The notes under the pieces were generated by a model. The model was not told the DNA's origin. It saw nothing but the letters and a program-made list of their open reading frames with translations, and ran no database searches. A stretch of 64,000 nucleotides of DNA from NCBI GenBank assembly GCA_964369315.1, contig CAYJEJ010000003.1:60528-124527 (forward strand). Direction: 5' to 3'. Shown in pieces: positions 8,764 through 31,172 of the stretch. The stretch comes from an uncultured Alphaproteobacteria bacterium. GTDB taxonomy: Bacteria > Pseudomonadota > Alphaproteobacteria > UBA3830 > JAIRWN01. The position numbers and the translations under genes were made by a program. The stretch's first letter is position 1, and every line of letters starts with the position of its first letter.

Positions 8764-8902
8764 TCTCATTTTAAGCTTTTTTTAAAACCTCTTTTTATAT
8801 AAGTTTTATTATACAGTTTATTAAGCCAATCTATTAATCTTTGCTATATTTTATGCTATAGTGTTTTAATAAGACTATATAATTATTGTATTGGAGAGCG
8901 AG

Positions 8903-9838
8903 ATGGAGAGGTTACTTGACCCGAAGAACGACTGGGCGTTCAAGCAGTTGTTTGGTCAAGAGAAGAACAAGAAGATATTGATAAGTTTTCTGAACGCGAT
9001 GTTGGAAGGCGTTGAGTCTTTGGTGGTTGATGTGGAGTTTTTGAAAGTTGAAACGGACACAGAGATACAGGCACTGAGGCAAAGCATAGTTGACGTGTTG
9101 TGCAAAGCAGAAGACGGGCGAAGGTTTATAGTCGAGATGCAGAGCTCGTCGGACTCTAGTTTTATTCAGAGGGCAGTTGAATATGCGAGCAGGGTATATT
9201 TAAACCAGCGGACGCGGGCAGCAAAAGAGAGGCACGACGGAGGCGGGAGAAAGGCGGTTTGTCCAGTGATTTTTCTTGCGGTTGTAGAGAAGAAGTTGTT
9301 CAAGGACATAGAGGGATATTTGACGCACCATCGGATACAGGAGGTTGTGACAGGCAGGTGCGAGATTAGGGAGATGTCGTTTTCGTTTTTGGAGCTGTCG
9401 AAGTTTGATAAGGGTTTTGATGAATTGGAGAGCGATGTAGACAGGTGGGCATATTTTTTCAAGCATGCGGACATGGTCTCGCCGGAGAGGTTGAGGGAGA
9501 TATTTGAGAGTAAGACGATATTCGGAGAGGCGTATAAGGAGCTTGAGCGTTCGGGATATTCGCCTGAGCAGTTACTAGAATATGTGAGGTATGAGTTAAA
9601 GGAAGAAGAGATTCAAACCCGCATAACCGACGCCACCCTCAAAGGCGAGAAGAAAGGCAGAGCCGAGGGCGAGAAGAAAGGCAGAGCTGAAGGTGAGAAG
9701 AAAGGCAGAGCCGAGGGTGAGAAGAAAGCAAAAACAGAAACTGCTCGAAATCTTTTATTAATGGGGCTGGGTGATAGCCAAATATCTCAAGCGACAGGCT
9801 TGTCGATTGATGAAATTAGAAGTTTGGGCAAAACGTAA
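8903..9838 (+). CDS. Rpn/YhgA-like PD-(D/E)XK recombination-promoting nuclease / putative transposase
   Basis: N-terminus LLDPKNDWAFKQLFG...ILISFLNAML...DVLCKAEDGRRFIVEMQ is typical of this family. It is visibly more GC-rich than its neighbours. An alternative TTG start lies at 8891. Confidence 0.75.
   Translation: MERLLDPKNDWAFKQLFGQEKNKKILISFLNAMLEGVESLVVDVEFLKVETDTEIQALRQSIVDVLCKAEDGRRFIVEMQSSSDSSFIQRAVEYASRVYLNQRTRAAKERHDGGGRKAVCPVIFLAVVEKKLFKDIEGYLTHHRIQEVVTGRCEIREMSFSFLELSKFDKGFDELESDVDRWAYFFKHADMVSPERLREIFESKTIFGEAYKELERSGYSPEQLLEYVRYELKEEEIQTRITDATLKGEKKGRAEGEKKGRAEGEKKGRAEGEKKAKTETARNLLLMGLGDSQISQATGLSIDEIRSLGKT
9644..9730 (+). repeat. in-frame 24-nt tandem repeat (about 3.6 copies) encoding GEKKGRAE
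   Basis: Units GGCGAGAAGAAAGGCAGAGCCGAG at 9644, 9668 and 9692, plus a partial unit at 9716. Substitutions are mostly third-position. Confidence 0.9.
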
Positions 9839-18524: not shown

Positions 18525-18601
<77 letters not shown>

Positions 18602-18689
18602 ATAATTTCGAATTATCAAAGTTTTAATGAGATTTTATGCATGTTAAGAGCATAAGTTTCTGTTTGTTATAAGCAAATGATGTTATGTT

Positions 18690-19799
18690 TTATTTTTCTA
18701 AGTGCTTTAAGTAAATAATATTAATTTCGTTTTTTGTTCCAAGCCTAAGTGGAACGCCGAATGTTCCCACTCCTTCCGATATATAAATGTCCATATTCCC
18801 TAGTTTATATCGACCGCTCGAATATTCAAAAAAAGCTTTACTAAACAGGGTAATTGGCCACATCTGTCCACCACCATGTGTATGACCAGAAATCATTAGA
18901 TTAAACCCTGTCTTGTTTGCATATTTTGCACCATATGGTGCGTGTTGGATTAAAATGGATGGTTTTTTCTCATCCAATGAAATTGTCGAGAGGAAATCAT
19001 TCAAATAAATGTCATTAGGGCTTTTATGAACACCAACTGAATCTTTGTCTGAATCTAAGTAATCTGTTCCCACAAACTGCACTCCTTCAATTTCTATTTG
19101 AGTGTTTTCTAGGTGTATGAAGCCAAGCTCTCTGATAAGGTTTTTGATTTCTGGATAACAAACGTAAGTTTCATGATTGCCTTCAGTAAAGATGACTTTT
19201 CCTTTAAATTTCGATAAAGTTTCTTTCACATTTTTTTGTAACCTATAGTTATCTTCAAACAAATCGCCATTTAAAATAACAATGTCTGGATTATGTTTAT
19301 TTGTGATTTCAATAACTTTTTTTAAATATTTGTTTGTTTGAAAATGACCCAAGTGGATGTCTGGTAAATGAGCAATAACAAGCTCTTTTTTTAGATTTGG
19401 CATCTTTACATCAATTTTTGATATTGTTAACTTTTGACCATTATGCCAAGAAACAGCAGTTAAAATAATGGCGATTAGAAGTGAAATACTAATAGGGTGT
19501 GGTACAGGAACACTTAATCCCTTTAGGATAAATGTTACATAAATCAAAACCCCAAAGAATGCTTGCAACATAAACAATACTGCCACAAAAACGTAAGCAT
19601 TAGTAAACCAAGAACCAACTTCAAAGTTTTTTTTCAGCCCAAACATGGCTAAAAACACCACTAAAACGCTCAAATAGGCGATGGATATGGCAAATTTTCC
19701 AAAAAAAGAGGCTTTTATCATGTGCCCAATAATAATTGGTGTGATGAAAAAAGATGACATGATAGTAATCACAAATGCTATGAGTAAGATTTTTTCCAC
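18690..19799 (-). CDS. membrane-anchored metallophosphoesterase (calcineurin-like)
   Basis: The N-terminal ~120 aa are hydrophobic with several predicted TM helices. They are followed by the DIHLGH, GDLFED, GNHE and GHTHGG metallophosphoesterase motifs. Confidence 0.8.
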   Translation of the reverse strand: MEKILLIAFVITIMSSFFITPIIIGHMIKASFFGKFAISIAYLSVLVVFLAMFGLKKNFEVGSWFTNAYVFVAVLFMLQAFFGVLIYVTFILKGLSVPVPHPISISLLIAIILTAVSWHNGQKLTISKIDVKMPNLKKELVIAHLPDIHLGHFQTNKYLKKVIEITNKHNPDIVILNGDLFEDNYRLQKNVKETLSKFKGKVIFTEGNHETYVCYPEIKNLIRELGFIHLENTQIEIEGVQFVGTDYLDSDKDSVGVHKSPNDIYLNDFLSTISLDEKKPSILIQHAPYGAKYANKTGFNLMISGHTHGGGQMWPITLFSKAFFEYSSGRYKLGNMDIYISEGVGTFGVPLRLGTKNEINIIYLKHLEK

Positions 19800-19886
19800 C
19801 CTAATTTCCCCTGTTTTTTTATAAGAATGATTAAACCTCTGTGTTTAAAAAATCCCAAGAATTTAGTCCTAAATTTTGATTTTTTG

Positions 19887-21344
19887 TTAGTTTTTCGTGT
19901 GTTCGCTTATTTTTTCTATGTAATAGTCGTCTGGTTTATCTACTCTATAAAAATAGCTATCATCAGATTCAATGGCATTAGTGTCGAAGACTTTTTCTAA
20001 TATTTCTTTCGAGCGTTCATCAGGTAATCTCCTTACGTATAATTTATATGGTTTATCAATATCGCAATAGTCAAAAAAAACAAAAGCATGGAAGCGGTCT
20101 AGGGCTTCTTCTTTAAGGCATGTCTTGACATTATTTTTTTCAAAATATTTTCCCAGAACCTCTTCGGATAGATATTTCTTTGAAGAAACCATATTATTGT
20201 TCTTATCAAAGGTAATTTCGGACCCAAAACTTTTATATGCCATCACAGGTTTGTGTTCATGTTGCTCTGGGTTCTGCTTTTCATCACCTATAACCAGTAC
20301 AATAATATCGTGTTCTTTTATGATACCGTTCTTTTGCCATTTTTCTACATCTTTACTTTTGTCCAGAATACTATTAGCCCATCTAGATTTTTTTATATCA
20401 TCATCACCGAACTGACCCTCTATCTTGCCATAAGTAGTGTCTTGTGTAGAATATTCACACCCTTGTTTAACGGGACCTTCATCACCTGTCTGTGTTGTGT
20501 TTTGACCATTAATATCAGTATGTTCAGAGTGTCTTTTTTGCGTGTCCTGATAGCACGTGCATTCGATGAATATATTATAATCTTTGCATTCAATTTTAAA
20601 ATCTGGACCACCTTTATCTTTGCCTAGACTACCATTACTAACTTTATAACCGGATTTTTTTAAATTATAGGCTACATTTAATTCAACGAGCCGACTAAAA
20701 GTTTTTCCTGCTTCATTCTTTTTATTATTAAACTCCTTTTTAAAGTTGGCATCTAGTAGCCCTTTTGCCACACTATACTTATACTCAAAAAATGGTTGGC
20801 ATCGTTCGTTACACTTTTTAAAATAGTAACAGTTTCGTTTGTTGATGGTTTTTGAGAAGCTAGCTTTTATTTCATTATAATAATCACTACCATAATTTTC
20901 ATCAAATAGCCTTTCTTCTTTAAAGTATTTTACGAAGGAGTATTTTGTTAATTTTGGGTTTTTGGGGTTTTTTCTAACAAATTCTAGTTCGTATCCGCAT
21001 TTTTCATAAAATTTTGGTGCTAAGAACTCTGAAGTCCAAAGATTTATGTTCCAATATCCTTTTTCCTTGAAATTTTTCTCTAATTCAGCAAGAAGTGTTT
21101 TCCCAAAACCTTGTTTTCGATATTTTTCCTCAACCCATAACATATCGACATAAATCTCGTCATATATGGTCAACGCTTTTATCATACCGATTAACTCCTG
21201 ATTGCTCTCATCAGTCATAAGCATCCAAAAGGGATGATAATTAGAATCTATATTATGAGCACCATCATGTTTTTTCCAACTTTCCTTTACTTTTTCCTCA
21301 AGTTGTTTCGAAATTTTGTCTACTGTTTGTATATTAAATTTCAT
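19887..21344 (-). CDS. GNAT N-acetyltransferase fused to an uncharacterised ~330-aa C-terminal region
   Basis: The N-terminal ~150 aa carry the GNAT motif A RKQGFGKTLL and KFYEKCGYE. The C-terminal part has no recognised family but contains E...GGPDFKIE...NIFIECT, a PD-(D/E)XK-like arrangement. Confidence 0.7.
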   Translation of the reverse strand: MKFNIQTVDKISKQLEEKVKESWKKHDGAHNIDSNYHPFWMLMTDESNQELIGMIKALTIYDEIYVDMLWVEEKYRKQGFGKTLLAELEKNFKEKGYWNINLWTSEFLAPKFYEKCGYELEFVRKNPKNPKLTKYSFVKYFKEERLFDENYGSDYYNEIKASFSKTINKRNCYYFKKCNERCQPFFEYKYSVAKGLLDANFKKEFNNKKNEAGKTFSRLVELNVAYNLKKSGYKVSNGSLGKDKGGPDFKIECKDYNIFIECTCYQDTQKRHSEHTDINGQNTTQTGDEGPVKQGCEYSTQDTTYGKIEGQFGDDDIKKSRWANSILDKSKDVEKWQKNGIIKEHDIIVLVIGDEKQNPEQHEHKPVMAYKSFGSEITFDKNNNMVSSKKYLSEEVLGKYFEKNNVKTCLKEEALDRFHAFVFFDYCDIDKPYKLYVRRLPDERSKEILEKVFDTNAIESDDSYFYRVDKPDDYYIEKISEHTKN

Positions 21345-21512
21345 AAATATTAAATCCTTTAAAAATCATGTTTAATAAATCGTACCATGATAACAAAAGT
21401 TCATATTAAAGATTTTTTTAATGTATTAAATTAATAATTTATTGTTAATAATTTTTGCTTCTTCTATATCTCGGGAAGCTTACACATCCCTAAAATTTTC
21501 TATTGATAATTG

Positions 21513-24500
21513 TTAAAAATAATCTTTGTTGGTTTTTTTAATAATATTTTCTAATTTTTTGGAAATTGTATCCGATGGATTTTTACCCAAATTAAATCGA
21601 TTAATTCGAATGAATTGACATCCGTATCCCTCCAAAATTTTTTCTCGTTCTATGTCTGATTTTTTGTAATAAAATTCGTAGTTAAAATGATTTACTTCCG
21701 ATAAATTTGTAAAATGTTCTTTAAAACCATCATACTCAATAATAATATTATTCGATTGATTTTTATTTCTATATTGTAGAAAAAAATCACAACGATATCT
21801 TGGATGGTTATATCTATGGTCAAGTTGTTTTAAGTAGTCACCAATGGGAAACTGAGCTTGGATAGAAAAGAATTCTCGGTTTTTTTGATAAAATTGAGCG
21901 TCTTGAATCCATAACAATACTTTTTGCTCCATGGGAGAGGATGGGTCGACATCTTCTTTTGAGGGCAGTTCTTTAGCCTGTAAAAGTTGATTTTCATAAA
22001 AGTTTAAAGCTGTTCTTATAGAGCCAGAGAATTCATTAATTGGTTTGCTGAGTACGAAGTGCATGCATTCTTTAGCCCTACTAAAACCAACGTTAAGACG
22101 TTGTAACCTAATCTTTTTTACATCATCATTTGAATCTTCAATATTTGCAGAAAATATGTAGTTTGTTTTATCAGAGACAGGGGAGGCAGTCATCGAATAA
22201 AAGATAATGTCCCTCTCTTCACCTTGACAGCTGTCAAATGTCATAATTTTTAATTTTAATTTGAGGTAAATATCTTCTGCAAATTTTGATTTTCTAACTA
22301 CATTAGAAATGAACTTTTGTTGATTAACAAATGGAGTTATGACACCAACTGATGTCGATGATTTTTCTGAAACAAGGCGTTCAAGTTCTTGCACAATAAA
22401 TTCAGCTTCAAAAGGGTTAGTATTATTATCTTCTGGGGTTTCTAATTTTTCATCATGTTGTAAAACAGTAAATTTTAAAACATCGTCAATGGGTTTTCCT
22501 CGGATTTTTATCGCCTGAAGTTGCCCATCATAAAAATATTTGCTTGAAAATGAAATAATTTCTCGATATCCTCTAAAGTGTTTACGTAGCATGATACTGT
22601 AATTGGCAATAAAAGAGAAAAAATCTAAGACTGAGGTTTTAATATCAAGCTGTTTCATCCTTTCTAATTGCAGTGTATCTTTGGAAATATTGTCTTTAAA
22701 TGATATTATCAATTTATCCAAATAACTATTGCTAATAATTTTACTCGCAGCGGATGTTTTAACGTTGCTAAATTGTCTCGTATCACCAAGGACTATAATT
22801 TTTTTTGCCCTTAAAATTGCTGGAAACGCTTGTGCTAAACTTACCTGTGACGCCTCATCAATAATGACAAGGTCAAACAGCCCTTCTTTTAGTGGGATAT
22901 ATTCTGAATAATTACGAATGCCCGCTATTATACAAGGAAAGGTTTCTTTTATGTTATCAAACTCGACACGTGGAAATTTTTGTCTTTTAGAAATGATATT
23001 TTTAAGTGTTGTTGATGTGCTTCTTTTATTTTCATAAAAATCCAATACTTTGTCATCAATTGAAGAAATCATCAATAAGGTGTGGAGTTTCGATATTTGT
23101 TGACTATAGTTTAGGTAGTTCATATCTGGAATGGAAGAAAATATTTCTTTATATTCCGTTTTCTTTTTACAATATTCATCAACAAGGCAAGTTTGTTTTA
23201 GAAGGGACTTTATAGATTCCCTATCTTTTGTTGCTACGAAAGAAAGGTCTATGCCTAAATTTTTTAAGATATTAATTTCTGGAACACCTAATTTAGGAAT
23301 TGGGAATGTGTCTGATATTTTTGACAAAAAATCAATATAAGAAGAATCGTTATTTGTTGTAAAAAAATCATAAAATTCCATAAATTCTTTTTTAGGAAAA
23401 TTTTGTTTGTTTGCTAAATCGATAATTTCATCAATCGCAACAAGAGTTTCTATAATTAATGGTGCCTCTTGCGAAAGGTTAAGATGTTTTTCTAATTTAA
23501 AAATATCATTCAATCTTTGCTCAAGGGCAACTACTTGAGACTTATATAAAAATTTAAAAAACTTTTTTGATAAAAGGTTATATTGTTTTACAATGCTTCT
23601 AATCTCTAAGAGAGGTTGTTCTTCCATTTTAAGCATTATATCTAAGTGATGGTGTAGTCGATATTTATCGTACCATGAACAAATTGAAACAAATAAGTCG
23701 ATAGTTTCTTTTAAGTTTTTATCGTTCCAAGAAGAGAGTTGGTTATTCAGGTATTGGATAAAGACGTTTAGCACTTTTTCATCAAAACTGTCGTGTAAGT
23801 TTATTAAGAATTCAAAGAAAGATTTAATATTTGGGAGTATTGGAGAGATTAAATTAATGCCATCGATATTCTGTTCGCCAATTTTTTGTTCGATTGTTTT
23901 TTCTAATTTGATAAAATTGTTTAATTCCTTAATGTTAATTTTGTCATAATAATTTATGGTTTGTTCAATTTTATTAATTAACTCTTTTTTCTCTTTGCAA
24001 ATTTTAGAGTTTATATCTTCTAATTCTTCGCTACAAATATAGTGATTTCGAATCTTACTAATAGATGTATGACTAAATATTTTACTAAAATTAGGTTTAT
24101 CTAGACGAAGTATTGGATTTGAGAAATTTTCTGCCCCTCTTACTTTATTGCATGTGTCATTGATTTTGTCTTGAACGACATCTAGAGCCTCTGTTTTGTC
24201 GGAAAGGATTAAAACAGATTTGCCTTTCATAATCATATCAAAAACAATTGCGGTAATTGTATGACTTTTGCCAGTACCTGGGGGACCTTGTACGGCAATA
24301 CATTTGCAATCTTTTTCATTCAAGGCAGTTATAATTTTTCTTTGTTCTGCATTTAAGGGAACAGGTGAATCATAAACCAAGCGTTCTGATATATTTTTTT
24401 GTTCCCAATCGGTTTCTATTTCTTTACGACGCGAGATTGGGTCTTCTAAAATAAAAGATTTTAAAAAGTCGACAAAAGCAAGAGATAACGGGTTGTTTTC

Positions 24501-25694
24501 TGGATTCAAAACATTTATTAACTCTTCATAGTCATTAAGTATAGCTTCATCTGATGTATCGAACAGGCAAAAATGAATGTTATTTGTAATTTTTAGAGTT
24601 GGGGACTGCCTTTTAGTTGATTTATGGTCAGATAGGTTTATATCCTCTAAAAATGAAAAATGCCTAGTAATATCCGAAATAATAGGCTGTAAAACTGTTA
24701 AGATTGTTTTTTCGTCATCATTTAAGTAAACAATATGGTCTTTAACTGAGCGGATTTTAGAAAATTTTTGATTATCATTATCCTTGTTATATTCTTGTAC
24801 TATATATTCAATTGCCTTTTTATTTATAAAAACACGACTTTTTTCAATAACAATAGAAAACAAATCATTTTGTTTTTCGATTTTTATTGGTAAATAAAAA
24901 ACAGGATAAATTCTTTTTTCAAAATGGATGTCACAAAAATAAAGATAAAAATCTTTTTTTTCAGTTAATTGTTTATTTTCAAATATTTCGAATATTTCAT
25001 AGAACAAATCATACAACATAAAATCTTCAAAAAAATCATGTAACTTTTCTTTGAAAATTGAAATGTTTAAAAGCTCAAGTAAAGCAAGTTTAAAATTATC
25101 TATTTCTTCATTTATAAAAAATGATGCTAGGTGTTCATTCAAGTCTTCTCTAATATTGCCCAATAATAGATTTAATAAATCATTTTCAATTGTAAATGTC
25201 GTATCTTGTTGTAATGCTTTATCTAAATTACTAGAAAGTGGTCGAATGATTTTTTGTAATAATTCTTCTCTAATGTTTTCTATGACCTGTTCGAAGAAAG
25301 AATCATAGTCATCTATATGGTTCGTGCGAATACTTACTATATTGGCTAAGTATGATATTACGAGGTTTTCTAGAGCTGTCTCATCTATTGAATTTATGAT
25401 TTCTGTTATAAGACTTTTTAAATTAGGTTTCAGATTTAATTTGTGCTGACCTTTTTTAATCTCAAATTCAACGAAAGGTTCATTATTGTTTATCAAATTT
25501 TTTAAAACAAATTCTTGAAATTTCTCATATTTGGCTAAATTAATGCCTGACAAATAACCATTGTTATCTCTCAGACGGATGAAACGTTTAGGTATTGATT
25601 GACGATGGAATCCAGTTTCAAGAAAATCAGAGTAATATCTCATCAATTCTTTAAAAAATACTTTTTCTCCCTCTCTTAAACCTGCGTGAACCAT
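21513..25694 (-). CDS. SF1 (Upf1/AAA_11-AAA_12-like) helicase fused to a C-terminal Vsr/DUF559-like endonuclease domain
   Basis: Walker A GPPGTGKSHT, a gap of more than 450 aa, then VIIDEASQ, VLGDTRQ, LRKHFRG, TFDSCQGEERD and RLNVGFSRAKE. The C-terminus YRCDFF...IIIEYDGFKEH...REKILEGYGCQFIRI matches the Vsr/DUF559 pattern. Confidence 0.8.
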   Translation of the reverse strand: MVHAGLREGEKVFFKELMRYYSDFLETGFHRQSIPKRFIRLRDNNGYLSGINLAKYEKFQEFVLKNLINNNEPFVEFEIKKGQHKLNLKPNLKSLITEIINSIDETALENLVISYLANIVSIRTNHIDDYDSFFEQVIENIREELLQKIIRPLSSNLDKALQQDTTFTIENDLLNLLLGNIREDLNEHLASFFINEEIDNFKLALLELLNISIFKEKLHDFFEDFMLYDLFYEIFEIFENKQLTEKKDFYLYFCDIHFEKRIYPVFYLPIKIEKQNDLFSIVIEKSRVFINKKAIEYIVQEYNKDNDNQKFSKIRSVKDHIVYLNDDEKTILTVLQPIISDITRHFSFLEDINLSDHKSTKRQSPTLKITNNIHFCLFDTSDEAILNDYEELINVLNPENNPLSLAFVDFLKSFILEDPISRRKEIETDWEQKNISERLVYDSPVPLNAEQRKIITALNEKDCKCIAVQGPPGTGKSHTITAIVFDMIMKGKSVLILSDKTEALDVVQDKINDTCNKVRGAENFSNPILRLDKPNFSKIFSHTSISKIRNHYICSEELEDINSKICKEKKELINKIEQTINYYDKINIKELNNFIKLEKTIEQKIGEQNIDGINLISPILPNIKSFFEFLINLHDSFDEKVLNVFIQYLNNQLSSWNDKNLKETIDLFVSICSWYDKYRLHHHLDIMLKMEEQPLLEIRSIVKQYNLLSKKFFKFLYKSQVVALEQRLNDIFKLEKHLNLSQEAPLIIETLVAIDEIIDLANKQNFPKKEFMEFYDFFTTNNDSSYIDFLSKISDTFPIPKLGVPEINILKNLGIDLSFVATKDRESIKSLLKQTCLVDEYCKKKTEYKEIFSSIPDMNYLNYSQQISKLHTLLMISSIDDKVLDFYENKRSTSTTLKNIISKRQKFPRVEFDNIKETFPCIIAGIRNYSEYIPLKEGLFDLVIIDEASQVSLAQAFPAILRAKKIIVLGDTRQFSNVKTSAASKIISNSYLDKLIISFKDNISKDTLQLERMKQLDIKTSVLDFFSFIANYSIMLRKHFRGYREIISFSSKYFYDGQLQAIKIRGKPIDDVLKFTVLQHDEKLETPEDNNTNPFEAEFIVQELERLVSEKSSTSVGVITPFVNQQKFISNVVRKSKFAEDIYLKLKLKIMTFDSCQGEERDIIFYSMTASPVSDKTNYIFSANIEDSNDDVKKIRLQRLNVGFSRAKECMHFVLSKPINEFSGSIRTALNFYENQLLQAKELPSKEDVDPSSPMEQKVLLWIQDAQFYQKNREFFSIQAQFPIGDYLKQLDHRYNHPRYRCDFFLQYRNKNQSNNIIIEYDGFKEHFTNLSEVNHFNYEFYYKKSDIEREKILEGYGCQFIRINRFNLGKNPSDTISKKLENIIKKTNKDYF

Positions 25695-25790
25695 TCTTAA
25701 TTCTTTTACTTGGAACTATATTGAAACTGAGATAAAAAAAGCACCTTATCAGTTGAAGTCTACCATAAAGGTAGTAATTTAATAAAATCG

Positions 25791-25864
25791 TGGAGGCCGA
25801 GATCGGAATCGAACCAACGTACAAGGATTTGCAGTCCTCTGCATAACCACTCTGCCACCCGGCC
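25791..25864 (-). tRNA. tRNA-Cys (anticodon GCA)
   Basis: The reverse complement reads GGCCGGGTGGCAGAG...GACTGCAAATCC...GGTTCGATTCCGATCTCGGCCTCCA. Anticodon loop CTGCAAA, encoded CCA. Confidence 0.9.
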
Positions 25865-25976
25865 AACCTGTAAAGAGTTTAATATCATAATAGTTTTTTG
25901 GTCAACACATTTTATGTGGTGATTTTTAATATTGTGCGGTATAATCACGTTCAATAGGTTTTTTTATGGTTCGTTT

Positions 25977-27398
25977 ATGAATATTAGTCGGCTAAGATTT
26001 TTTGGCTTTTTATCGTGTTTGCTTTATTCTTTTAATGTCAGTGCTATGACATTAACGCAAGCCATTAAAAATGCCAGTGCTATGACATTAATACAAGCTA
26101 TTGAAAATGCTTTCTTATATAACGCAAAGTGGAAGGCTGCTGTTTTGGAGGATAGTGCCGTAAAACAAGATTCTTTCACTGCAAAAATGGCTTTTGCTCC
26201 ATCTGCGAACGTAAACCTTTCAACAGGGCCTACATATACAAAATCCAAATCATCCTCTGAAGGTGTGAAAAACCCAGACCAGCAAAATAAAGAGTATTCG
26301 AAACAGGCTGGTTTGTCTGTGAACCAAAAAATATTAGATTTTTCATCATTTGCACAAATCAAAAACGCTAATGAAAGTGTTTTGGTTAGCAACAGTAACC
26401 TTCAAAAAATTAAGCAAGACGTCATTATAGAAACGTTAAGTGCCTATATGGGGCTTTGGGCGGCTAGGGAAAATGTAAAAATATCTGAAAAAAATGAACA
26501 AAATATTGAACAAGACTTACTAGCTTCCAGAAAACGTTTGGAGGTTGGTATCGGAATTCTTCAGGACGTGGCAGCGAACGAGGCGGCTTACGCAGAGGCA
26601 GTATATTATCGAATTGATGCACAGGCAAAGCTTGCAACTGCAGTTGCAGAGTTTGAAAAAACCGTTGGCGTAATGCCAAATGGGGATTTGGTCATGCCAG
26701 GGCTACCAAAAAATATTCCAGATGAATTGGGGAAATTTTTGGCAAGTGCTTTGAAGGATAACCCCTCTGTTAAGCAAAGCAGGTACCAAGAGTCGGTGGC
26801 CTTATCTTCTGTGGACGTTCAAAAGGGTGCGTTGATGCCGAATGTTACTTTATCAGCCAATGCTTCAAGAAATTTAGGAGAGAGAAATACAAAAACTCCT
26901 AGCTCAATTTATCCAACAGTTAATAATCAGAGTTCGAACCTAAGTGCTAAAATAGAGCTGACTGTTCCGCTGCTAGCGTTTTCAAATTATAGCAGAATTA
27001 AACACGCCAATATAAAGGCGGAATCTGCTCACATGAACTATCAACTGACCCGTCAGGAAATAGAAAAATCTTGTTATAGTTTGTGGGCACAGTTTGAGAC
27101 CTCGAAGGCTCAAATAAAACAAGCCGAACTTGCGGTTAAGAGTGCTGAGATTGCTGCTAAGGGTATGAGGCAGTGTTTGACCTTGGGGACTAAGTCTACT
27201 ACTGATGTTTTACAACAAGAACAAAAATTGCTTCAAGCACGTAGGAATAGTGTTGAAGCGAGGCGGGTTTTTATTATAACAGCGTATAACCTGATAGCTT
27301 TAATGGGACAACTTGATTTGTTAAATGTGGTGGAGAAAGTTAATATTCCTGAAACTGAAGTGGGCAACGTTATTGATGAGGAAATAAGTGTTGGTTAA
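25977..27398 (+). CDS. tolC: TolC-family outer membrane efflux protein
   Basis: Signal peptide MNISRLRFFGFLSCLLYSFNVSA, followed by the two-repeat TolC helix/strand pattern. ATG 25977 was preferred over the ORF-track start at 25932. Confidence 0.8.
   Translation: MNISRLRFFGFLSCLLYSFNVSAMTLTQAIKNASAMTLIQAIENAFLYNAKWKAAVLEDSAVKQDSFTAKMAFAPSANVNLSTGPTYTKSKSSSEGVKNPDQQNKEYSKQAGLSVNQKILDFSSFAQIKNANESVLVSNSNLQKIKQDVIIETLSAYMGLWAARENVKISEKNEQNIEQDLLASRKRLEVGIGILQDVAANEAAYAEAVYYRIDAQAKLATAVAEFEKTVGVMPNGDLVMPGLPKNIPDELGKFLASALKDNPSVKQSRYQESVALSSVDVQKGALMPNVTLSANASRNLGERNTKTPSSIYPTVNNQSSNLSAKIELTVPLLAFSNYSRIKHANIKAESAHMNYQLTRQEIEKSCYSLWAQFETSKAQIKQAELAVKSAEIAAKGMRQCLTLGTKSTTDVLQQEQKLLQARRNSVEARRVFIITAYNLIALMGQLDLLNVVEKVNIPETEVGNVIDEEISVG
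26029..26100 (+). repeat. 36-nt tandem duplication (2 copies, 4 mismatches) at the signal-peptide/mature junction of tolC
   Basis: The duplication encodes SAMTLTQAIKNA and then SAMTLIQAIENA. Confidence 0.9.
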
Positions 27399-27843
27399 TG
27401 AGCGAGAACAAGAGTTGTCAGTAGATGAGATATTGTCAGCTATAAGGCGTAATATTTCTCACATTGATGTTAAAAAGGTTGATGATGTCCCGTCTAAAGA
27501 AGAAATGGAGATTATAGACCTTGAGGAAGAGGTGTTCGATGATGTTGATGGGCAAAACTTAGAGAATAAAGACGAATGCCCTTGTGATGATGAAAAAGAT
27601 TTTAATGATGTGATATCAGACCAGTGTTCCGATAGTGTCATCAATTCACTAAATAAGTTTGCTAACATATCAATTAACGAACAAAAGCTTTCTCAGGAGG
27701 AAAAGATTTTTACACAGCAAAATTCTTTGGATGGAGTTGTTAAACAGGCACTAAAGGATTGGATGGATTCTAACTTACCCGAGATGGTTGAGCGTATAGT
27801 GGAGAGGGAGATATCCCTGATTACTGACCAATATAAAAAATGA
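27388..27843 (+). CDS. DUF2497 / PopZ-like acidic protein
   Basis: N-terminal ILSAIRRNI motif, an acidic middle, and C-terminal LKDWMDSNLPEMVERIVEREI as in alphaproteobacterial PopZ. The GTG start overlaps the tolC stop, and the stop overlaps the murE start. Confidence 0.7.
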   Translation: MLVNEREQELSVDEILSAIRRNISHIDVKKVDDVPSKEEMEIIDLEEEVFDDVDGQNLENKDECPCDDEKDFNDVISDQCSDSVINSLNKFANISINEQKLSQEEKIFTQQNSLDGVVKQALKDWMDSNLPEMVERIVEREISLITDQYKK

Positions 27844-29420
27844 TAACGCTGGAAAGTTTGCTGTCGGGCGTTTGTTACGATAGTATCAGTGTTTCGGGTT
27901 CGACGTTTTCTTTAATTCATAAAATGCTAGTTAAAGGGATTGCACTTCATTCAAATGATGTGTGCAAAGGTGGGTTGTTTGCTGCGTTCAGTGGCAAAAA
28001 TCTTGATGGTGTGAAATATATTGAAGATGCTGTTTCATTGGGAGCCCAATTCATCTTATGTGACCGAGAATATGGTCGCACCCTTCCTATTGACGATAAT
28101 TTTAGCTCTGAATTTGAAGCATCTTTATTTAATATTGATAATATAGTTTATATATTGTGCGACAACCCTAGGAAGGTTTTTAGTCGCATGGTTAAAAACT
28201 ATTGCAAAATTCAGGGTGGATATTTAATAGGTGTTACAGGCACTAATGGGAAAAGCTCGGTAGTAGATTTTTTGAGACAACTTTGGCATATAAGTGGAAA
28301 AAAATGTGCTTCAATCGGAACTTTGGGGGTGATGAACGGAGGCGAGTTATACAAAAATGTCTCTGAGAGGTGCTTGAATAATCAAAGCCACATGACCACA
28401 CCAGATGTTGTTTCACTTAATAAAACAATTAAAAATTTACTGGATAAAAATACCTCTCACCTAGCGTTAGAGGTCTCAAGCCATGGGCTAGACCAATATA
28501 GGGTTGATAACATAAAATATAAAGTCGCTTGTTTTACGAATTTATCGCAAGACCACTTGGACTATCATGAAAATATGTCAAATTATTTGCAGGCAAAACT
28601 TAGATTTTTTGAAGAGGTCATTGATGACAATACAACAGTGGTCATTAATTATGACTCTCCGCAATGTGAAAAATTGCAAGAAGTTTGTAAGTCAAGAGGG
28701 TTGCGACAGATTACTTACGGCGTGAGTGAGCAGGCAAAAAACAATGCGGACATAAGCGGTGAAGTGATTGGCTATGGAGTGGATTTCCAATTAATAAATA
28801 TCAAAGTTTTTGAAAAACATTTTAATGACATAAAATTGCCTGTAATAGGTGATTTTCAATTATATAATGTTTTATGTGCGATTGCAGGATTAATTCCTGA
28901 GGTTGGAGTGGACGGTATTGAATTTTATATATCACAGCTTGTTCAGTTGAAAAATGTGACAGGGAGGCTGGAATTAGCTGGCACATATAATGAAGCGGGT
29001 ATTTATGTTGACTTTGCTCATACGCCCGAGGGATTGAATAATGTTTTAAGGTCACTAAGAAAATATTCTACTGGAAAATTGAAAATATTGTTTGGTTGTG
29101 GTGGACAACGCGACAAAACTAAACGCCCAATTATGGGACATATCGCATGCGAATTGGCGGATGAAGTTTTTGTAACAGACGATAACCCTAGGGAGGAAGA
29201 ACCTGAAAGCATTAGAAAGGATATAATTTTAGGGGGTATTGGTTCAAAAATGCAGGAATGTGTTGCAGGACGGGGTGATGCCATAGCTCAAGCAATAAAA
29301 ACTTTAAATAAAGGGGATGTGCTTTTAATTGCGGGCAAGGGTCACGAAAATACGCAGATTTTAAAAAATCAAGTGGTGTATTTTAATGACTCAGAAATTG
29401 TGAAATCTTTTATAAATTAA
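27840..29420 (+). CDS. murE: UDP-N-acetylmuramoyl-L-alanyl-D-glutamate--2,6-diaminopimelate ligase
   Basis: Mur ligase P-loop GVTGTNGKSS, DNPR motif (TDDNPREE), 526 aa. Confidence 0.9.
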   Translation: MITLESLLSGVCYDSISVSGSTFSLIHKMLVKGIALHSNDVCKGGLFAAFSGKNLDGVKYIEDAVSLGAQFILCDREYGRTLPIDDNFSSEFEASLFNIDNIVYILCDNPRKVFSRMVKNYCKIQGGYLIGVTGTNGKSSVVDFLRQLWHISGKKCASIGTLGVMNGGELYKNVSERCLNNQSHMTTPDVVSLNKTIKNLLDKNTSHLALEVSSHGLDQYRVDNIKYKVACFTNLSQDHLDYHENMSNYLQAKLRFFEEVIDDNTTVVINYDSPQCEKLQEVCKSRGLRQITYGVSEQAKNNADISGEVIGYGVDFQLINIKVFEKHFNDIKLPVIGDFQLYNVLCAIAGLIPEVGVDGIEFYISQLVQLKNVTGRLELAGTYNEAGIYVDFAHTPEGLNNVLRSLRKYSTGKLKILFGCGGQRDKTKRPIMGHIACELADEVFVTDDNPREEEPESIRKDIILGGIGSKMQECVAGRGDAIAQAIKTLNKGDVLLIAGKGHENTQILKNQVVYFNDSEIVKSFIN

Positions 29421-29496
29421 TTGAAAATAGTTATATTTGTGTTACAATCCATTTGTATTTGATATTTTTAGCCACGCAAGGGGAGGTGATTGTTAT

Positions 29497-29703
29497 ATGT
29501 GTATCGTGTATGTAAGAGACGGCAATTTAGACCAAGCTATGCGTGCTTTGAAAAAGAAAATTAACCTAGAAGGCGTCCTGAGAGAATGCCGTCGTCGTAG
29601 CTATTTTGAGCGTCCAGCCGAAGCAAGGGTTCGCAAGAAGTCAGAGGCAGTTCGTAGAGCTAGGAAGATGGAACGTAAACGTATGGAGCGTGAAGGTTTT
29701 TAA
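29497..29703 (+). CDS. rpsU: 30S ribosomal protein S21
   Basis: The sequence [18 protein letters not shown]...[13 protein letters not shown] matches S21. GGGGAGGTGA Shine-Dalgarno sequence lies upstream of ATG 29497. The ORF track starts earlier, at 29437. Confidence 0.9.
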
Positions 29704-29736: not shown

Positions 29737-29762
29737 AGCTCGTTTTATACGAGCTTTTTTTT
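29737..29762 (+). terminator. rho-independent terminator after rpsU
   Basis: Stem AGCTCG / CGAGCT with a 7-nt loop, followed by a T7 run. Confidence 0.7.
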
Positions 29763-29913
29763 ATGATGCTGAACAATTTAATGTCGTTATAAAATTGTCT
29801 ATCGATAAGTTTATTATTTTATCTAATTTTTCATGTCAATTAACTCAGATTGGTTAAGTTTTTATTGTCTTAATTAAACGTTATGTTAACATAACATCTG
29901 GTGTTTTTTAATT

Positions 29914-30587
29914 ATGGAGTTTTGTTATGAAGCATGTTGCATGTTGCATGTTGCATGTTGCATGTTGCTGGCTGCGTTTTCATTAGCTAATGTTCAAGCA
30001 GAGACAAGTGGTTCTGTTCAAGAAAGCAATGAGCCGTCTTCTTTCTCTGGTGCGTATGCGAGCCTTGGTGGAGCTTATGATTTTTGCTCTTTAAAACTGG
30101 AGTTTGAAAATAATAATTTGAGTTTTTCGCCAAAGTATTATGGCATTCTGGCTAATATTGGTTATGGCTATACGTTTGATGGCGGTCTATATCTTGGTTT
30201 AGAAGGGGTCGTATCTTTTGGTTTGTGTCCTACTGATAAGAAAAATATTGGAAACACTGGTGCAACTATATCTGTGAAAGCTGATTCTATTAATTATGGT
30301 GCACTGGTTAGATGTGGTTATGATTTTGGCGATACACCAGTGTTAGTTTATGCGGTTACAGGTCTAGAACATTATGGATGTACAGGTTCTAATAATGTGA
30401 ATAGTGAAAAAGCATTTCAAAAAGGTTTCCGTCCTTGCTTAGGGTTGGGTGGTGCTTATAGATTTTCAGACGACTTAGTGTAAGGGCTGATTTTATCCAT
30501 ACTTTTAGTTTGAAGAAGAAAGAGGATGATGAAACTACTACATACAACAAAAATAGAATTCAAGTAATGATGACCTATAATTTTTAA
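29914..30587 (+). pseudogene. outer-membrane beta-barrel protein (OMP_b-brl/Omp25-like), frame-disrupted
   Basis: Signal peptide ...LLAAFSLANVQA, with alternating aromatic/Gly beta-strand patterns. The ORF stops at 30483, but the +1 frame continues VRADFIHTFS...MMTYNF*, a canonical barrel C-terminus ending in Phe (stop at 30585-30587). Confidence 0.7.
29933..29967 (+). repeat. heptanucleotide tandem repeat (CATGTTG)x5 in the 5' coding region of the OMP gene
   Basis: Five perfect contiguous copies. The unit length is not a multiple of 3, and each unit carries an ATG. Confidence 0.95.
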
Positions 30588-30629
30588 TTATTATGTGTTA
30601 CAGTCATGAAGTTATTTTTATAACTATGG

Positions 30630-30907
30630 CGATAAACGTTATAAGTAATAGATGTTTTGGACCCGAGGGCGGAACTCGGCACCTCCACCAAGATTAGGTT
30701 TTTTGCGGGGGTGAATTAGGCTCGACAGATATTGAAAGTTATAATTTTCGCTCGGCATGGTACCGTCGTTATCGGGCTAAAACTAATAAGTGCAAACGAT
30801 AATTTTGCATTGACAGATGAGTTGAAAGCTGCTGCTTAGTTTAAGCAAGGCTTGAAGACTTTTTTGTCGCGGTTTAGGGGCTCCGGGCAACAGAAAGCCC
30901 CTGTTTT
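30630..30907 (+). ncRNA. ssrA: tmRNA (ssrA), circularly permuted two-piece alphaproteobacterial type
   Basis: The acceptor piece ends with T-arm CCGAG-GGCGGAA-CTCGG plus CACCTCC-A-CCA at 30690. After a 16-nt spacer, the coding piece starts GGGGGTG at 30707 and pairs with a G3:U. The tag ORF GCA AAC GAT AAT TTT GCA...TAG (30792-30839) encodes ANDNFALTDELKAAA. A terminal hairpin AGGGGC/GCCCCT plus T-run lies near 30876-30907. The outer boundaries are approximate. Confidence 0.8.
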
Positions 30908-31172
30908 CCAAATTTATGTTTTGTAGTATCTCTAGCAAACATACAATAATCAATTATCAATAATAATTTAAATGGGCACCGCCTATACGATATATCTTTC
31001 TTCAGTCACAAAGTTTTGATGTGAATGGGATAATTCAGGGCTTAACTTAGGACGTTGAAAGACGCAAAAAACACATAAGACTGTGCTGTTATAAGCAACC
31101 AAATTTCAAACAACGTTATATACAAAGCTATATAAATCTGATGAAGCCTTTTCAAGGAAAGCAAGGCTACCC

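What the first reader, a model, noticed from the sequence alone, without database searches (positions are those of the whole stretch)
29914..30587. Outer-membrane beta-barrel gene with a 7-nt x5 repeat in the signal-peptide region (contingency-locus-like) plus a separate 3' frameshift
Seen in the sequence: (CATGTTG)x5 at 29933-29967 lies just after two candidate starts. ATG 29927 is preceded by GGAG at the ideal 7-nt spacing and would encode MKHVACCML... With 5 copies it is out of frame and hits a stop. It would be in frame with 3 or 6 copies, and 3 copies give a textbook signal peptide, MKHVACCMLLAAFSLANVQA. ATG 29914, which has a poor Shine-Dalgarno sequence, is in frame with 2, 5 or 8 copies. 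The ATG inside the last repeat unit is always in frame. Independently, the ORF stops at 30483. The +1 frame then continues for 35 codons to ...VMMTYNF*, a canonical barrel terminus, implying a 1-nt indel near 30475-30480. Established knowledge: repeat units whose length is not a multiple of 3 in 5' coding regions drive phase variation of surface proteins by slipped-strand mispairing. Inference: this is a phase-variable surface antigen currently in an OFF or low state, or a decaying pseudogene. Assembly error at either site is also possible.
Basis: partly seen in the sequence, partly recalled or inferred. Interest (0 to 1): 0.6.

Follow-up and report, generated by a model that had tools for sequence, protein, structure and literature searches.

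The report
Repeat-switched outer-membrane protein gene, now broken
A small outer-membrane barrel protein gene in a little-known intracellular-type alphaproteobacterium carries a slippage-prone 7-base repeat in its export signal, the kind that switches surface proteins on and off, but this copy is out of frame and also has a one-base deletion near its end.

Summary
(CATGTTG)x5 at 29933-29967 is a perfect tandem repeat and the only such repeat in 64 kb. It lies just after a GGAG-coupled ATG (29927), which is in frame only with 3, 6 or 9 copies. A second ATG (29914) is in frame with 2, 5 or 8 copies. The gene is a Pfam OMP_b-brl small beta-barrel. A 1-nt deletion at 30477/30478 cuts off the last beta-hairpin and the ...YNF terminus. 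Alignment to the closest homologue runs straight across the junction to the last residue.

The protein belongs to a tiny, very divergent subfamily found only in Holosporales/Holosporaceae metagenome genomes. No orthologue or second strain exists in any collection searched, so repeat-number variation could not be tested. The new result is that three of the five homologous genes whose DNA could be read carry G13-G14 tracts against a -10-like hexamer upstream of the start. Counting this gene, 4 of 6 loci in the subfamily carry a hypermutable 5' repeat. A conserved, syntenic sister subfamily has none in 6 loci.

Best reading: an Opa-style contingency gene, caught out of frame and additionally inactivated. 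It is a new member of a known kind, of moderate interest.

The parts
29737..29762 (+). Intrinsic terminator of the upstream rpsU (S21) gene. The OMP gene therefore needs its own promoter in 29763-29913.
   Evidence: 7-bp stem, 4 GC pairs, T run. ORF 29437-29703 is Ribosomal_S21.
29880..29895 (.). Perfect 16-bp palindrome GTTATGTTAACATAAC in the OMP upstream region. It overlaps a weak promoter-like site (TTAACA, 18 nt, AATTAT). It may be an operator, but this was not tested.
   Evidence: Read directly. Promoter-like match is (9 of 12, no more sites than in shuffles).
29914..29916 (+). ATG-1, with a poor Shine-Dalgarno sequence. It is in frame with the barrel at 2, 5 or 8 repeat units, so it is in frame now. 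It gives an acidic N-terminus, MEFCYE...
   Evidence: The database protein P0001 (189 aa) starts here.
29916..29919 (+). GGAG Shine-Dalgarno sequence, 7 nt before ATG-2.
   Evidence: read directly.
29927..29986 (+). ATG-2 and the 19-codon out-of-frame peptide it gives at 5 units (MKHVACCMLHVACCWLRFH*). At 3 or 6 units it would give MKHVACCML(HVACCML)LAAFSLANVQA, which resembles the homologues' MK(R/K)... signal peptides.
   Evidence: Homologue N-termini are (P0005 reads MKRLSMLLAAGL...).
29932..29968 (+). Heptanucleotide tract (CATGTTG)x5, 5.3 copies, 100% perfect. Three units encode HVACCML.
30001..30476 (+). Mature barrel region in frame 1, after the predicted VQA|E signal-peptidase site. 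It covers all of the barrel except the last hairpin.
   Evidence: Pfam PF13505 at 3e-17, profile positions 2-175 of 175, on the repaired protein. Alignments.
30477..30478 (+). Inferred site of the 1-nt deletion (TTA^GT, ancestrally TTAAGT). It is not in a repeat or homopolymer and there is no slippery heptamer.
   Evidence: Ungapped match of FSDDLSVRADF to FGDNWSARGDV of P0002.
30481..30483 (+). Premature TAA that ends the ORF as sequenced.
30477..30587 (+). Frame-shifted remnant encoding the last beta-hairpin and the C-terminal ...MMTYNF beta-signal.
   Evidence: The junction maps to strands 193-212 and 215-233 of the P0002 model.
30572..30930 (+). Two-piece alphaproteobacterial tmRNA gene directly abutting the OMP gene. 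It is a neighbour, not part of the switch. A perfect TATAAT (30576-30581) sits inside the OMP codons T-Y-N-F.

Best explanation
This is a lineage-specific small outer-membrane beta-barrel gene of a deeply branching, Holosporales-like alphaproteobacterium. Its signal-peptide coding region holds a slippage-prone heptanucleotide tract.

Proposed mechanism: gain or loss of one 7-nt unit by slipped-strand mispairing moves the barrel between three reading frames. At n=0 mod 3 the strong, GGAG-coupled ATG 29927 yields a classical signal peptide, which is full ON. At n=2 mod 3, the present state, only the weak ATG 29914 and ATGs inside the repeat are in frame, which is low or OFF. At n=1 mod 3 only ATGs inside the repeat are in frame. 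This is the Opa (CTCTT) or lic1 type of translational switch.

In this genome the gene sits at 5 units and has also lost one base at 30477/30478. That deletion removes the last beta-hairpin and the C-terminal Phe signal needed for barrel assembly. This allele is therefore a recently inactivated contingency gene.

Shown: the repeat, the frame arithmetic, the family and fold, the position and recency of the deletion, and the homopolymer tracts at homologues. Inferred: that the tract actually slips at high rate, the relative strengths of the start codons, and that the deletion is real rather than a sequencing error.
For: - The tract is perfect, unique in the window and has a unit length that is not a multiple of 3.
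- It lies 4 nt after an SD-coupled ATG, within the hydrophobic core of the signal peptide.
- Two start codons in two different frames precede the tract.
- Three units read in frame give a hydrophobic heptapeptide that the signal peptide's h-region can tolerate. The last unit's ATG TTG C matches the conserved MLLAA of P0005, at the DNA level too.
- The tract exceeds the PhasomeIt cut-off for 6-9 nt units (PMC5953494).
- Family behaviour: G13, G13 and G14 tracts abut a TAT(A/C)TT hexamer 31-37 nt before the ATG of the three closest homologous genes, in two different assemblies. The flanks around them have otherwise diverged. There is no other G/C run of 8 or more in those loci.
- No comparable repeat or G/C run (at most an A8 run) occurs in 6 loci of the syntenic TrpRS-HU-OMP sister subfamily.
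- The deletion is recent. The shifted frame is still open and keeps 6 invariant residues and the YNF end.
- The window is 93% coding with no other broken gene, so neither the assembly nor the genome is generally indel-ridden.
Against: - No second copy, strain or read set was available, so no repeat-length polymorphism has been seen.
- Only one such tract occurs in 64 kb, so there is no sign of a genome-wide set of phase-variable genes here.
- The 3' deletion means the gene is not under selection in this lineage at present.
- The homologues carry a different kind of repeat at a different place, and two subfamily members (L206, L207) carry none.
- The consensus promoter scan did not flag the poly-G sites. 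Their placement in a promoter spacer is my own reading.
- Signal-peptide quality was judged by eye, not with a predictor.
Confidence: 0.5

Rival explanations
1. This is a plain decaying pseudogene. The OMP gene lost its function in this lineage, and both the heptamer expansion and the 1-nt deletion are neutral lesions in dead DNA. The repeat never served as a switch.
For: There are two independent frame-disrupting features in one 670-nt gene. The gene is not syntenic with any homologue and has no close relative, as expected for a dispensable accessory gene. Intracellular-type alphaproteobacteria commonly shed surface genes (general knowledge).
Against: There is no further decay. No extra stops or indels occur over 215 codons, and all family-invariant residues are retained in both frames. 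Perfect five-copy heptamers do not arise readily by neutral drift, and none exists elsewhere in 64 kb. The tract sits exactly where a frame switch acts and is preceded by starts in two frames. Homologues independently carry hypermutable tracts.
Confidence: 0.3
2. One or both frame problems are sequencing or assembly artefacts. The real gene would be intact, for example with 6 units and the TTAAGT base present.
For: The sequence comes from a single assembly (cluster of one, one contig of 126,360 bp). Consensus calling across a length-heterogeneous repeat can report a minority or averaged copy number. A single missing base restores a full-length protein that matches its homologues.
Against: The deletion is not in a homopolymer, and a 35-nt repeat is spanned by ordinary short reads. 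The other roughly 50 genes in the window show no frameshift and coding density is 93%, so the indel error rate is low. Two errors in one small gene would be an unlikely coincidence.
Confidence: 0.15
3. The repeat is a regulatory DNA element rather than a coding-frame switch. It could be an array of binding sites or -35-like TTGCAT hexamers. The true start would be the ATG in the last unit, and copy number would tune transcription, as with the 7-bp repeats upstream of H. influenzae hmw genes.
For: Each unit contains TGTTGCA. The same heptamer, or a variant one base different, lies about 116 nt upstream of the ATG in four homologous loci. The ATG in the last unit is in frame at every copy number.
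Against: Starting at 29962 leaves a 13-residue leader (MLLAAFSLANVQA) with no charged n-region, which is too short for a normal signal peptide. Homologues start MK(R/K) a few residues before MLLAA, matching ATG 29927. The GGAG sequence serves ATG 29927, not 29962. No -10 element or gene lies downstream in a suitable position.
Confidence: 0.05

Closest known systems
Neisseria opa genes (CTCTT pentamer repeats in the leader-peptide coding region)
   Same: Both are small beta-barrel outer-membrane proteins. Both have a perfect short repeat, with a unit that is not a multiple of 3, inside the hydrophobic part of the signal-peptide coding sequence. In both, the reading frame depends on copy number through slipped-strand mispairing (PMC3960869).
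   Different: The unit here is 7 nt, not 5, and there are only 5 copies. A single gene is seen here, not a multigene family. There is no sequence membership, because Pfam gives OMP_b-brl and not the Opacity family. The host is an uncultured Holosporales-like alphaproteobacterium. Switching has not been observed. This allele also has a non-reversible 3' deletion.
Haemophilus influenzae lic1A/lic2A type switches (tetranucleotide repeats after alternative start codons)
   Same: Two start codons in different frames lie upstream of the tract. Different copy numbers would therefore give strong, weak or no translation (my recollection of Weiser et al. 1989, not checked here).
   Different: The repeat unit, the gene function (an LOS biosynthesis enzyme versus an OMP) and the organism all differ. 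Graded expression here is inference only.
Neisseria porA/opc type promoter homopolymer switches
   Same: This applies to the homologues, not the window gene. G13-G14 tracts lie directly against a -10-like hexamer upstream of OMP genes. porA poly-G is described in PMC3639595 (abstract).
   Different: The window gene has no homopolymer tract. The promoter assignment at the homologues is by eye, and the consensus scan did not call it.
Ail / OmpX / NspA / OmpA-TM / OmpW small outer-membrane barrels (Pfam clan of OMP_b-brl)
   Same: The fold class matches. The AlphaFold model of the closest homologue, P0002, hits Ail, OmpA TM, NspA, OmpX and OmpW with Foldseek probability 1.0. Pfam PF13505 scores 63.8 bits against a cut-off of 28.7.
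   Different: Sequence identity to these is 11-18% and TM-scores are only 0.44-0.65. A profile search of PDB sequences found nothing. The subfamily is restricted to Holosporales MAGs.
Bartonella SSR contingency loci (badE adhesin)
   Same: It is an alphaproteobacterial, host-associated bacterium in which simple sequence repeats give ON/OFF frameshifts in a surface protein gene (PMC11466379).
   Different: Those repeats are mononucleotide tracts in a trimeric autotransporter, and the switching was demonstrated experimentally.

Membership tests
Pfam OMP_b-brl (PF13505) small outer-membrane beta-barrel | Profile HMM score above the gathering threshold over the full model | tested here: met
   63.8 bits against a cut-off of 28.7, profile positions 2-175 of 175, on the frame-repaired protein. 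P0001, the ORF as sequenced, also carries PF13505.
Pfam OMP_b-brl (PF13505) small outer-membrane beta-barrel | Closed antiparallel beta-barrel fold | tested here: met
   Tested through the closest homologue only. The P0002 model has pLDDT 81.7 and hits Ail, OmpA, NspA, OmpX and OmpW.
Pfam OMP_b-brl (PF13505) small outer-membrane beta-barrel | Signal peptide, all strands and the C-terminal aromatic beta-signal in one open reading frame | tested here: not met
   the SD-coupled start is out of frame, and the last hairpin with the YNF end lies in the -1 frame after 30477.
SSR-driven translational phase-variable (contingency) gene | Perfect tandem repeat, with a unit that is not a multiple of 3, inside the 5' coding region | tested here: met
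   7 nt x 5.3 copies, 100% matches, starting 4 nt after ATG 29927.
SSR-driven translational phase-variable (contingency) gene | Copy number at or above the level used to predict hypermutability | tested here: met
   There are 5 copies. The PhasomeIt cut-off is 3 or more for 6-9 nt units (PMC5953494). The cut-off is a convention, not a measured rate for heptamers.
SSR-driven translational phase-variable (contingency) gene | A change of one unit toggles the frame between the start codon and the body of the gene | tested here: met
   Frame arithmetic: ATG 29927 is in frame at n=3, 6, 9 and ATG 29914 at n=2, 5, 8.
SSR-driven translational phase-variable (contingency) gene | Observed repeat-length polymorphism within a population or between strains | not testable with these tools
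Reads are not available.
SSR-driven translational phase-variable (contingency) gene | An ON repeat number yields a functional product | tested here: not met
   The 1-nt deletion at 30477/30478 truncates the barrel at every repeat number, unless it is a sequencing error.
Neisseria Opa family (Pfam Opacity) | Sequence membership in the Opacity profile | tested here: not met
   (E up to 1) lists only OMP_b-brl and a sub-threshold Autotransporter match. The resemblance lies in the mechanism and the fold class only.
Pseudogene | Reading frame disrupted relative to intact homologues | tested here: met
Pseudogene | Signs of prolonged neutral decay (several stops or indels, loss of conserved residues) | tested here: not met
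   All invariant positions are retained, and only the two lesions are present.

The most novel reading that the evidence does not exclude
A subfamily of small outer-membrane barrels in Holosporales, which are obligate or facultative symbionts of protists and arthropods, may be a set of genuine contingency genes. They would have evolved simple-sequence switches at least twice by different routes: poly-G at the promoter in some genomes, and a heptamer in the signal peptide here. That would make stochastic surface variation part of the biology of protist endosymbionts, a group in which no paper in the searched library reports phase variation.
Probability: 0.35. Interest if true: 0.6.

Novelty: new member of a known kind. 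Interest (0 to 1): 0.42.

Why it matters
Phase variation through simple repeats is regarded as a hallmark of bacteria facing adaptive immunity or phage, and it is best known in Neisseria, Haemophilus, Campylobacter and Helicobacter. Finding the same architecture here would suggest that protist- or arthropod-associated intracellular bacteria also bet-hedge their surface, perhaps against host recognition or phage. Here it is a heptamer in a signal peptide, and in sister genomes a poly-G tract upstream of the start, in a surface-protein subfamily confined to Holosporales-type symbionts. The finding also gives concrete loci for read-level tests. For annotation, it flags that the deposited 189-aa protein starts at the wrong ATG and lacks its last two strands.

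Tried and rejected
- **Orthologue or strain comparison.** The word-indexed protein search found only the gene itself. The exhaustive HMMER search found 11 hits, the best at 31% identity. The genome-contig scan with the OMP found nothing. The scan with the neighbouring MurE found relatives of 42% identity at most and no synteny.
- **Metagenome scan.** A scan for three repeat units returned unrelated microsatellites, none sharing flanks with the window. One of them, L161, is intergenic.
- **Organism identification.** An exact look-up of window proteins returned no names.
- **Paralogues.** There is no paralogue, and no second copy of the heptamer, within the window.
- **Programmed frameshifting at the 3' site.** I rejected this. 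There is no X XXY YYZ heptamer or long homopolymer between the last -1-frame stop and TAA 30481. Homology also places the junction at TTA^GT rather than at the TTTT run.
- **Lipoprotein reading of the Cys-rich leader.** I rejected this. No lipobox with L/V/I at -3 follows a hydrophobic stretch.
- **PDB sequence search.** A profile search found nothing.
- **Promoter scan at the homologues.** The consensus scan did not call the poly-G sites, so I do not claim the promoter-spacer position as shown.

Full report
**1. The observation.**

Tandem Repeats Finder reports one array at 29932-29968, with period 7, 5.3 copies and 100% matches. An independent regex scan shows it is the only perfect repeat with a 5-9 nt unit and at least three copies in the 64 kb. 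The window also has no G/C run of 7 or more.

Read directly, the layout is as follows:
- ATG at 29914
- GGAG at 29916-29919
- seven spacer bases
- ATG at 29927
- AAG
- (CATGTTG)x5 at 29933-29967

From 29927 the frame reads MKHVACCMLHVACCWLRFH and stops at 29984-29986. From 29914 it is open for 189 codons to TAA 30481-30483.

By simple arithmetic ATG 29927 is in frame with the body of the gene at 3, 6 or 9 units, and ATG 29914 at 2, 5 or 8. Every unit contains an ATG. Those of units 2 and 5 (29941 and 29962) are in frame now.

After the TAA, the -1 frame stays open from 30477 to TAA 30585-30587 and ends ...VMMTYNF.

**2. What the gene is.**

The frame-repaired protein has 215 aa with three repeat units. 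It matches Pfam OMP_b-brl (PF13505) end to end, at 63.8 bits against a cut-off of 28.7.

The protein is extremely isolated:
- The word-indexed search of 5.8 billion proteins returned only itself.
- The exhaustive HMMER search of 1.8 billion representatives returned 11 hits, the best (P0002) at 31% identity.
- Profile searches pulled in about 20 proteins. Where they are named, they come from Holosporaceae or Holosporales metagenome-assembled genomes.

Two subfamilies emerge:
- One ends ...TRSI and always sits in a TrpRS-HU-OMP arrangement.
- The other ends ...YNF. It contains the window gene, P0002 and its tandem paralogue, P0005, P0006, P0008 and P0026. Its members sit in different places in each genome.

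An AlphaFold model of P0002 (pLDDT 81.7) is a small closed barrel. Its best PDB matches are Ail, the OmpA transmembrane domain, NspA, OmpX and OmpW.

**3. The 3' frameshift.**

BLASTP of the repaired protein against P0002 runs without a break from residue 49 to the last residue of both proteins (E=5e-23). FSDDLSVRADF aligns ungapped to FGDNWSARGDV, which places the lost base at TTA^GT (30477/30478).

Six positions that are invariant in the YNF subfamily are encoded after the shift: R182, D184, F189, K204, Y213 and F215. The junction corresponds to the start of the last hairpin in the P0002 model (strands 193-212 and 215-233).

The ORF as sequenced therefore lacks the last two strands and the terminal aromatic residue. 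Established knowledge of BAM-dependent assembly says these are needed for insertion.

The site is not a repeat, a homopolymer or a slippery heptamer. I therefore reject programmed frameshifting and reversible slippage at this end.

The lesion is either recent or an error, because nothing else in the gene has decayed. The rest of the window is 93% coding with no other split gene. That argues against an assembly with frequent indels and against a genome in general decay.

**4. The 5' repeat.**

With three or six units, ATG 29927 gives MKHVACCML(HVACCML)LAAFSLANVQA followed by ETSG. By inspection this has a basic n-region, a hydrophobic core and a V-Q-A cleavage motif.

It lines up with the homologues' leaders. 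P0005 reads MKRLSMLLAAGL..., and the match extends to the DNA: ATGTTGTTGGCTGCT in P0005 against ATGTTGCTGGCTGCG here. So ATG 29927 is the ancestral start, and the last repeat unit is the ancestral Met-Leu of MLLAA.

With five units this start is out of frame. Only the weakly placed ATG 29914 (acidic MEFCYE... leader) and ATGs within the repeat remain in frame.

Two upstream starts in two frames, plus a unit that is not a multiple of three inside the leader, is the architecture of translational phase variation. The closest textbook case is CTCTT in the leader of Neisseria opa genes, which are also small surface barrels (PMC3960869). Five copies exceed the in-silico cut-off of three or more copies for 6-9 nt units (PMC5953494).

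**5. New evidence from the homologues.**

I looked at the 5' ends of every homologue whose DNA could be fetched:

| Locus | Protein | 5' repeat |
|---|---|---|
| L204:4001 | P0002 | G13 |
| L204:2931 | tandem paralogue of P0002 | G13 |
| L205:4001 (a different assembly, GCA_031267535.1) | P0005 | G14 |
| L206 | P0008 | none |
| L207 | P0026 | none |

Each poly-G tract abuts TATCTT or TATATT and ends 31-37 nt before the ATG. These are the only G/C runs of 8 or more in those loci. The surrounding upstream sequence has diverged while the tract is kept. A terminator separates the two L204 genes, so the second gene needs its own promoter in that interval.

I read the tract as lying between weak -35-like hexamers and the -10-like hexamer, as in porA or opc. 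However, the consensus scan did not call these sites, so that placement is inference.

L206 and L207 carry no repeat. Six loci of the syntenic TRSI subfamily carry nothing beyond an A8 run.

Counting the window gene, 4 of the 6 YNF-subfamily loci with DNA have a hypermutable tract at the 5' end, of two different kinds. That is what a contingency-gene family looks like, and it raises my confidence that the heptamer is more than a lesion.

**6. What could not be done.**

No orthologue, second strain or read set exists in the collections:
- The genome-contig scan with the OMP found nothing.
- The scan with MurE found relatives of 42% identity at most, with no rpsU-OMP-ssrA arrangement.

The defining property of phase variation is observed length polymorphism, and it remains untested. 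No paper in the searched library links Holosporales with phase variation.

**7. Verdict.**

| Reading | Probability |
|---|---|
| Opa-like, repeat-switched surface-barrel gene, out of frame for its main start, and knocked out in this genome by a separate one-base deletion | about 0.5 |
| Plain pseudogene whose repeat is incidental | about 0.3 |
| Sequencing error at one or both sites | about 0.15 |
| Regulatory rather than coding repeat | about 0.05 |

It is a new member of a known kind of system. The family-level pattern in protist-symbiont genomes is the part worth following up.

Noticed in passing
L204:3952-3964, L204:2881-2893, L205:3952-3965: G13, G13 and G14 tracts directly abut a TAT(A/C)TT hexamer and end 31-37 nt upstream of the ATG of the three closest homologous OMP genes. 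The loci come from Holosporales MAGs, JGI sample 3300042636 and GCA_031267535.1. They look like promoter-type phase-variation tracts.
   Followed up: partly
L204:2816, L204 about 3885, L205:3885 and 3922, L206:136; window 29935-29962: TGTTGCA is the core of the window's heptamer repeat. The same heptamer, or a variant one base different, lies about 116 nt upstream of the ATG in four homologous loci, possibly as the -35 of a distal promoter (TTGCAT/TTGCAA). It is unclear whether this is coincidence or the seed of the repeat.
   Followed up: partly
window 30572-30930: A two-piece (permuted) alphaproteobacterial tmRNA gene with tag ANDNFALTDELKAAA starts within a few bases of the OMP stop. A perfect TATAAT (30576-30581) lies inside the OMP's last codons (T-Y-N-F) and matches the 5' flank of the Rfam model, so the ssrA promoter may be embedded in the OMP 3' end. 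No terminator separates the two genes.
   Followed up: partly
window 29880-29895: A perfect 16-bp palindrome, GTTATGTTAACATAAC, lies 19 nt upstream of ATG 29914 and overlaps the only promoter-like match before the gene. It could be an operator.
   Followed up: no
window 18525-25864: A low-GC stretch (29-31% against about 37%) lies between tRNA-Met (18525) and tRNA-Cys (25791). It holds a 1393-aa SF1-helicase-like protein (AAA_11/AAA_12), a 485-aa protein with an N-terminal GNAT domain and a metallophosphoesterase. It may be an acquired island or a defence locus.
   Followed up: partly
window 9644-9728 and 26034-26110: There are two in-frame coding tandem repeats. One has a 24-nt unit x 3.5 copies (91% matches) inside ORF 8891-9838. 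The other has a 36-nt unit x 2.1 copies near the 5' end of the TolC-like OEP gene (25932-27398). Both unit lengths are multiples of 3, so they would change protein length, not frame.
   Followed up: no
window 27840-29420 (MurE) and the whole window: The source organism is very isolated. The best MurE match among 185,579 species-representative genomes is 42% identity, to unclassified Alphaproteobacteria MAGs. Window proteins form single-member clusters without names. The genome is absent from the species-representative collection.
   Followed up: partly
window 29914-30483 (database protein P0001): The deposited 189-aa protein for this gene starts at the weak ATG 29914 and ends at the premature stop. 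The public annotation therefore treats a frameshifted gene as an intact CDS.
   Followed up: yes
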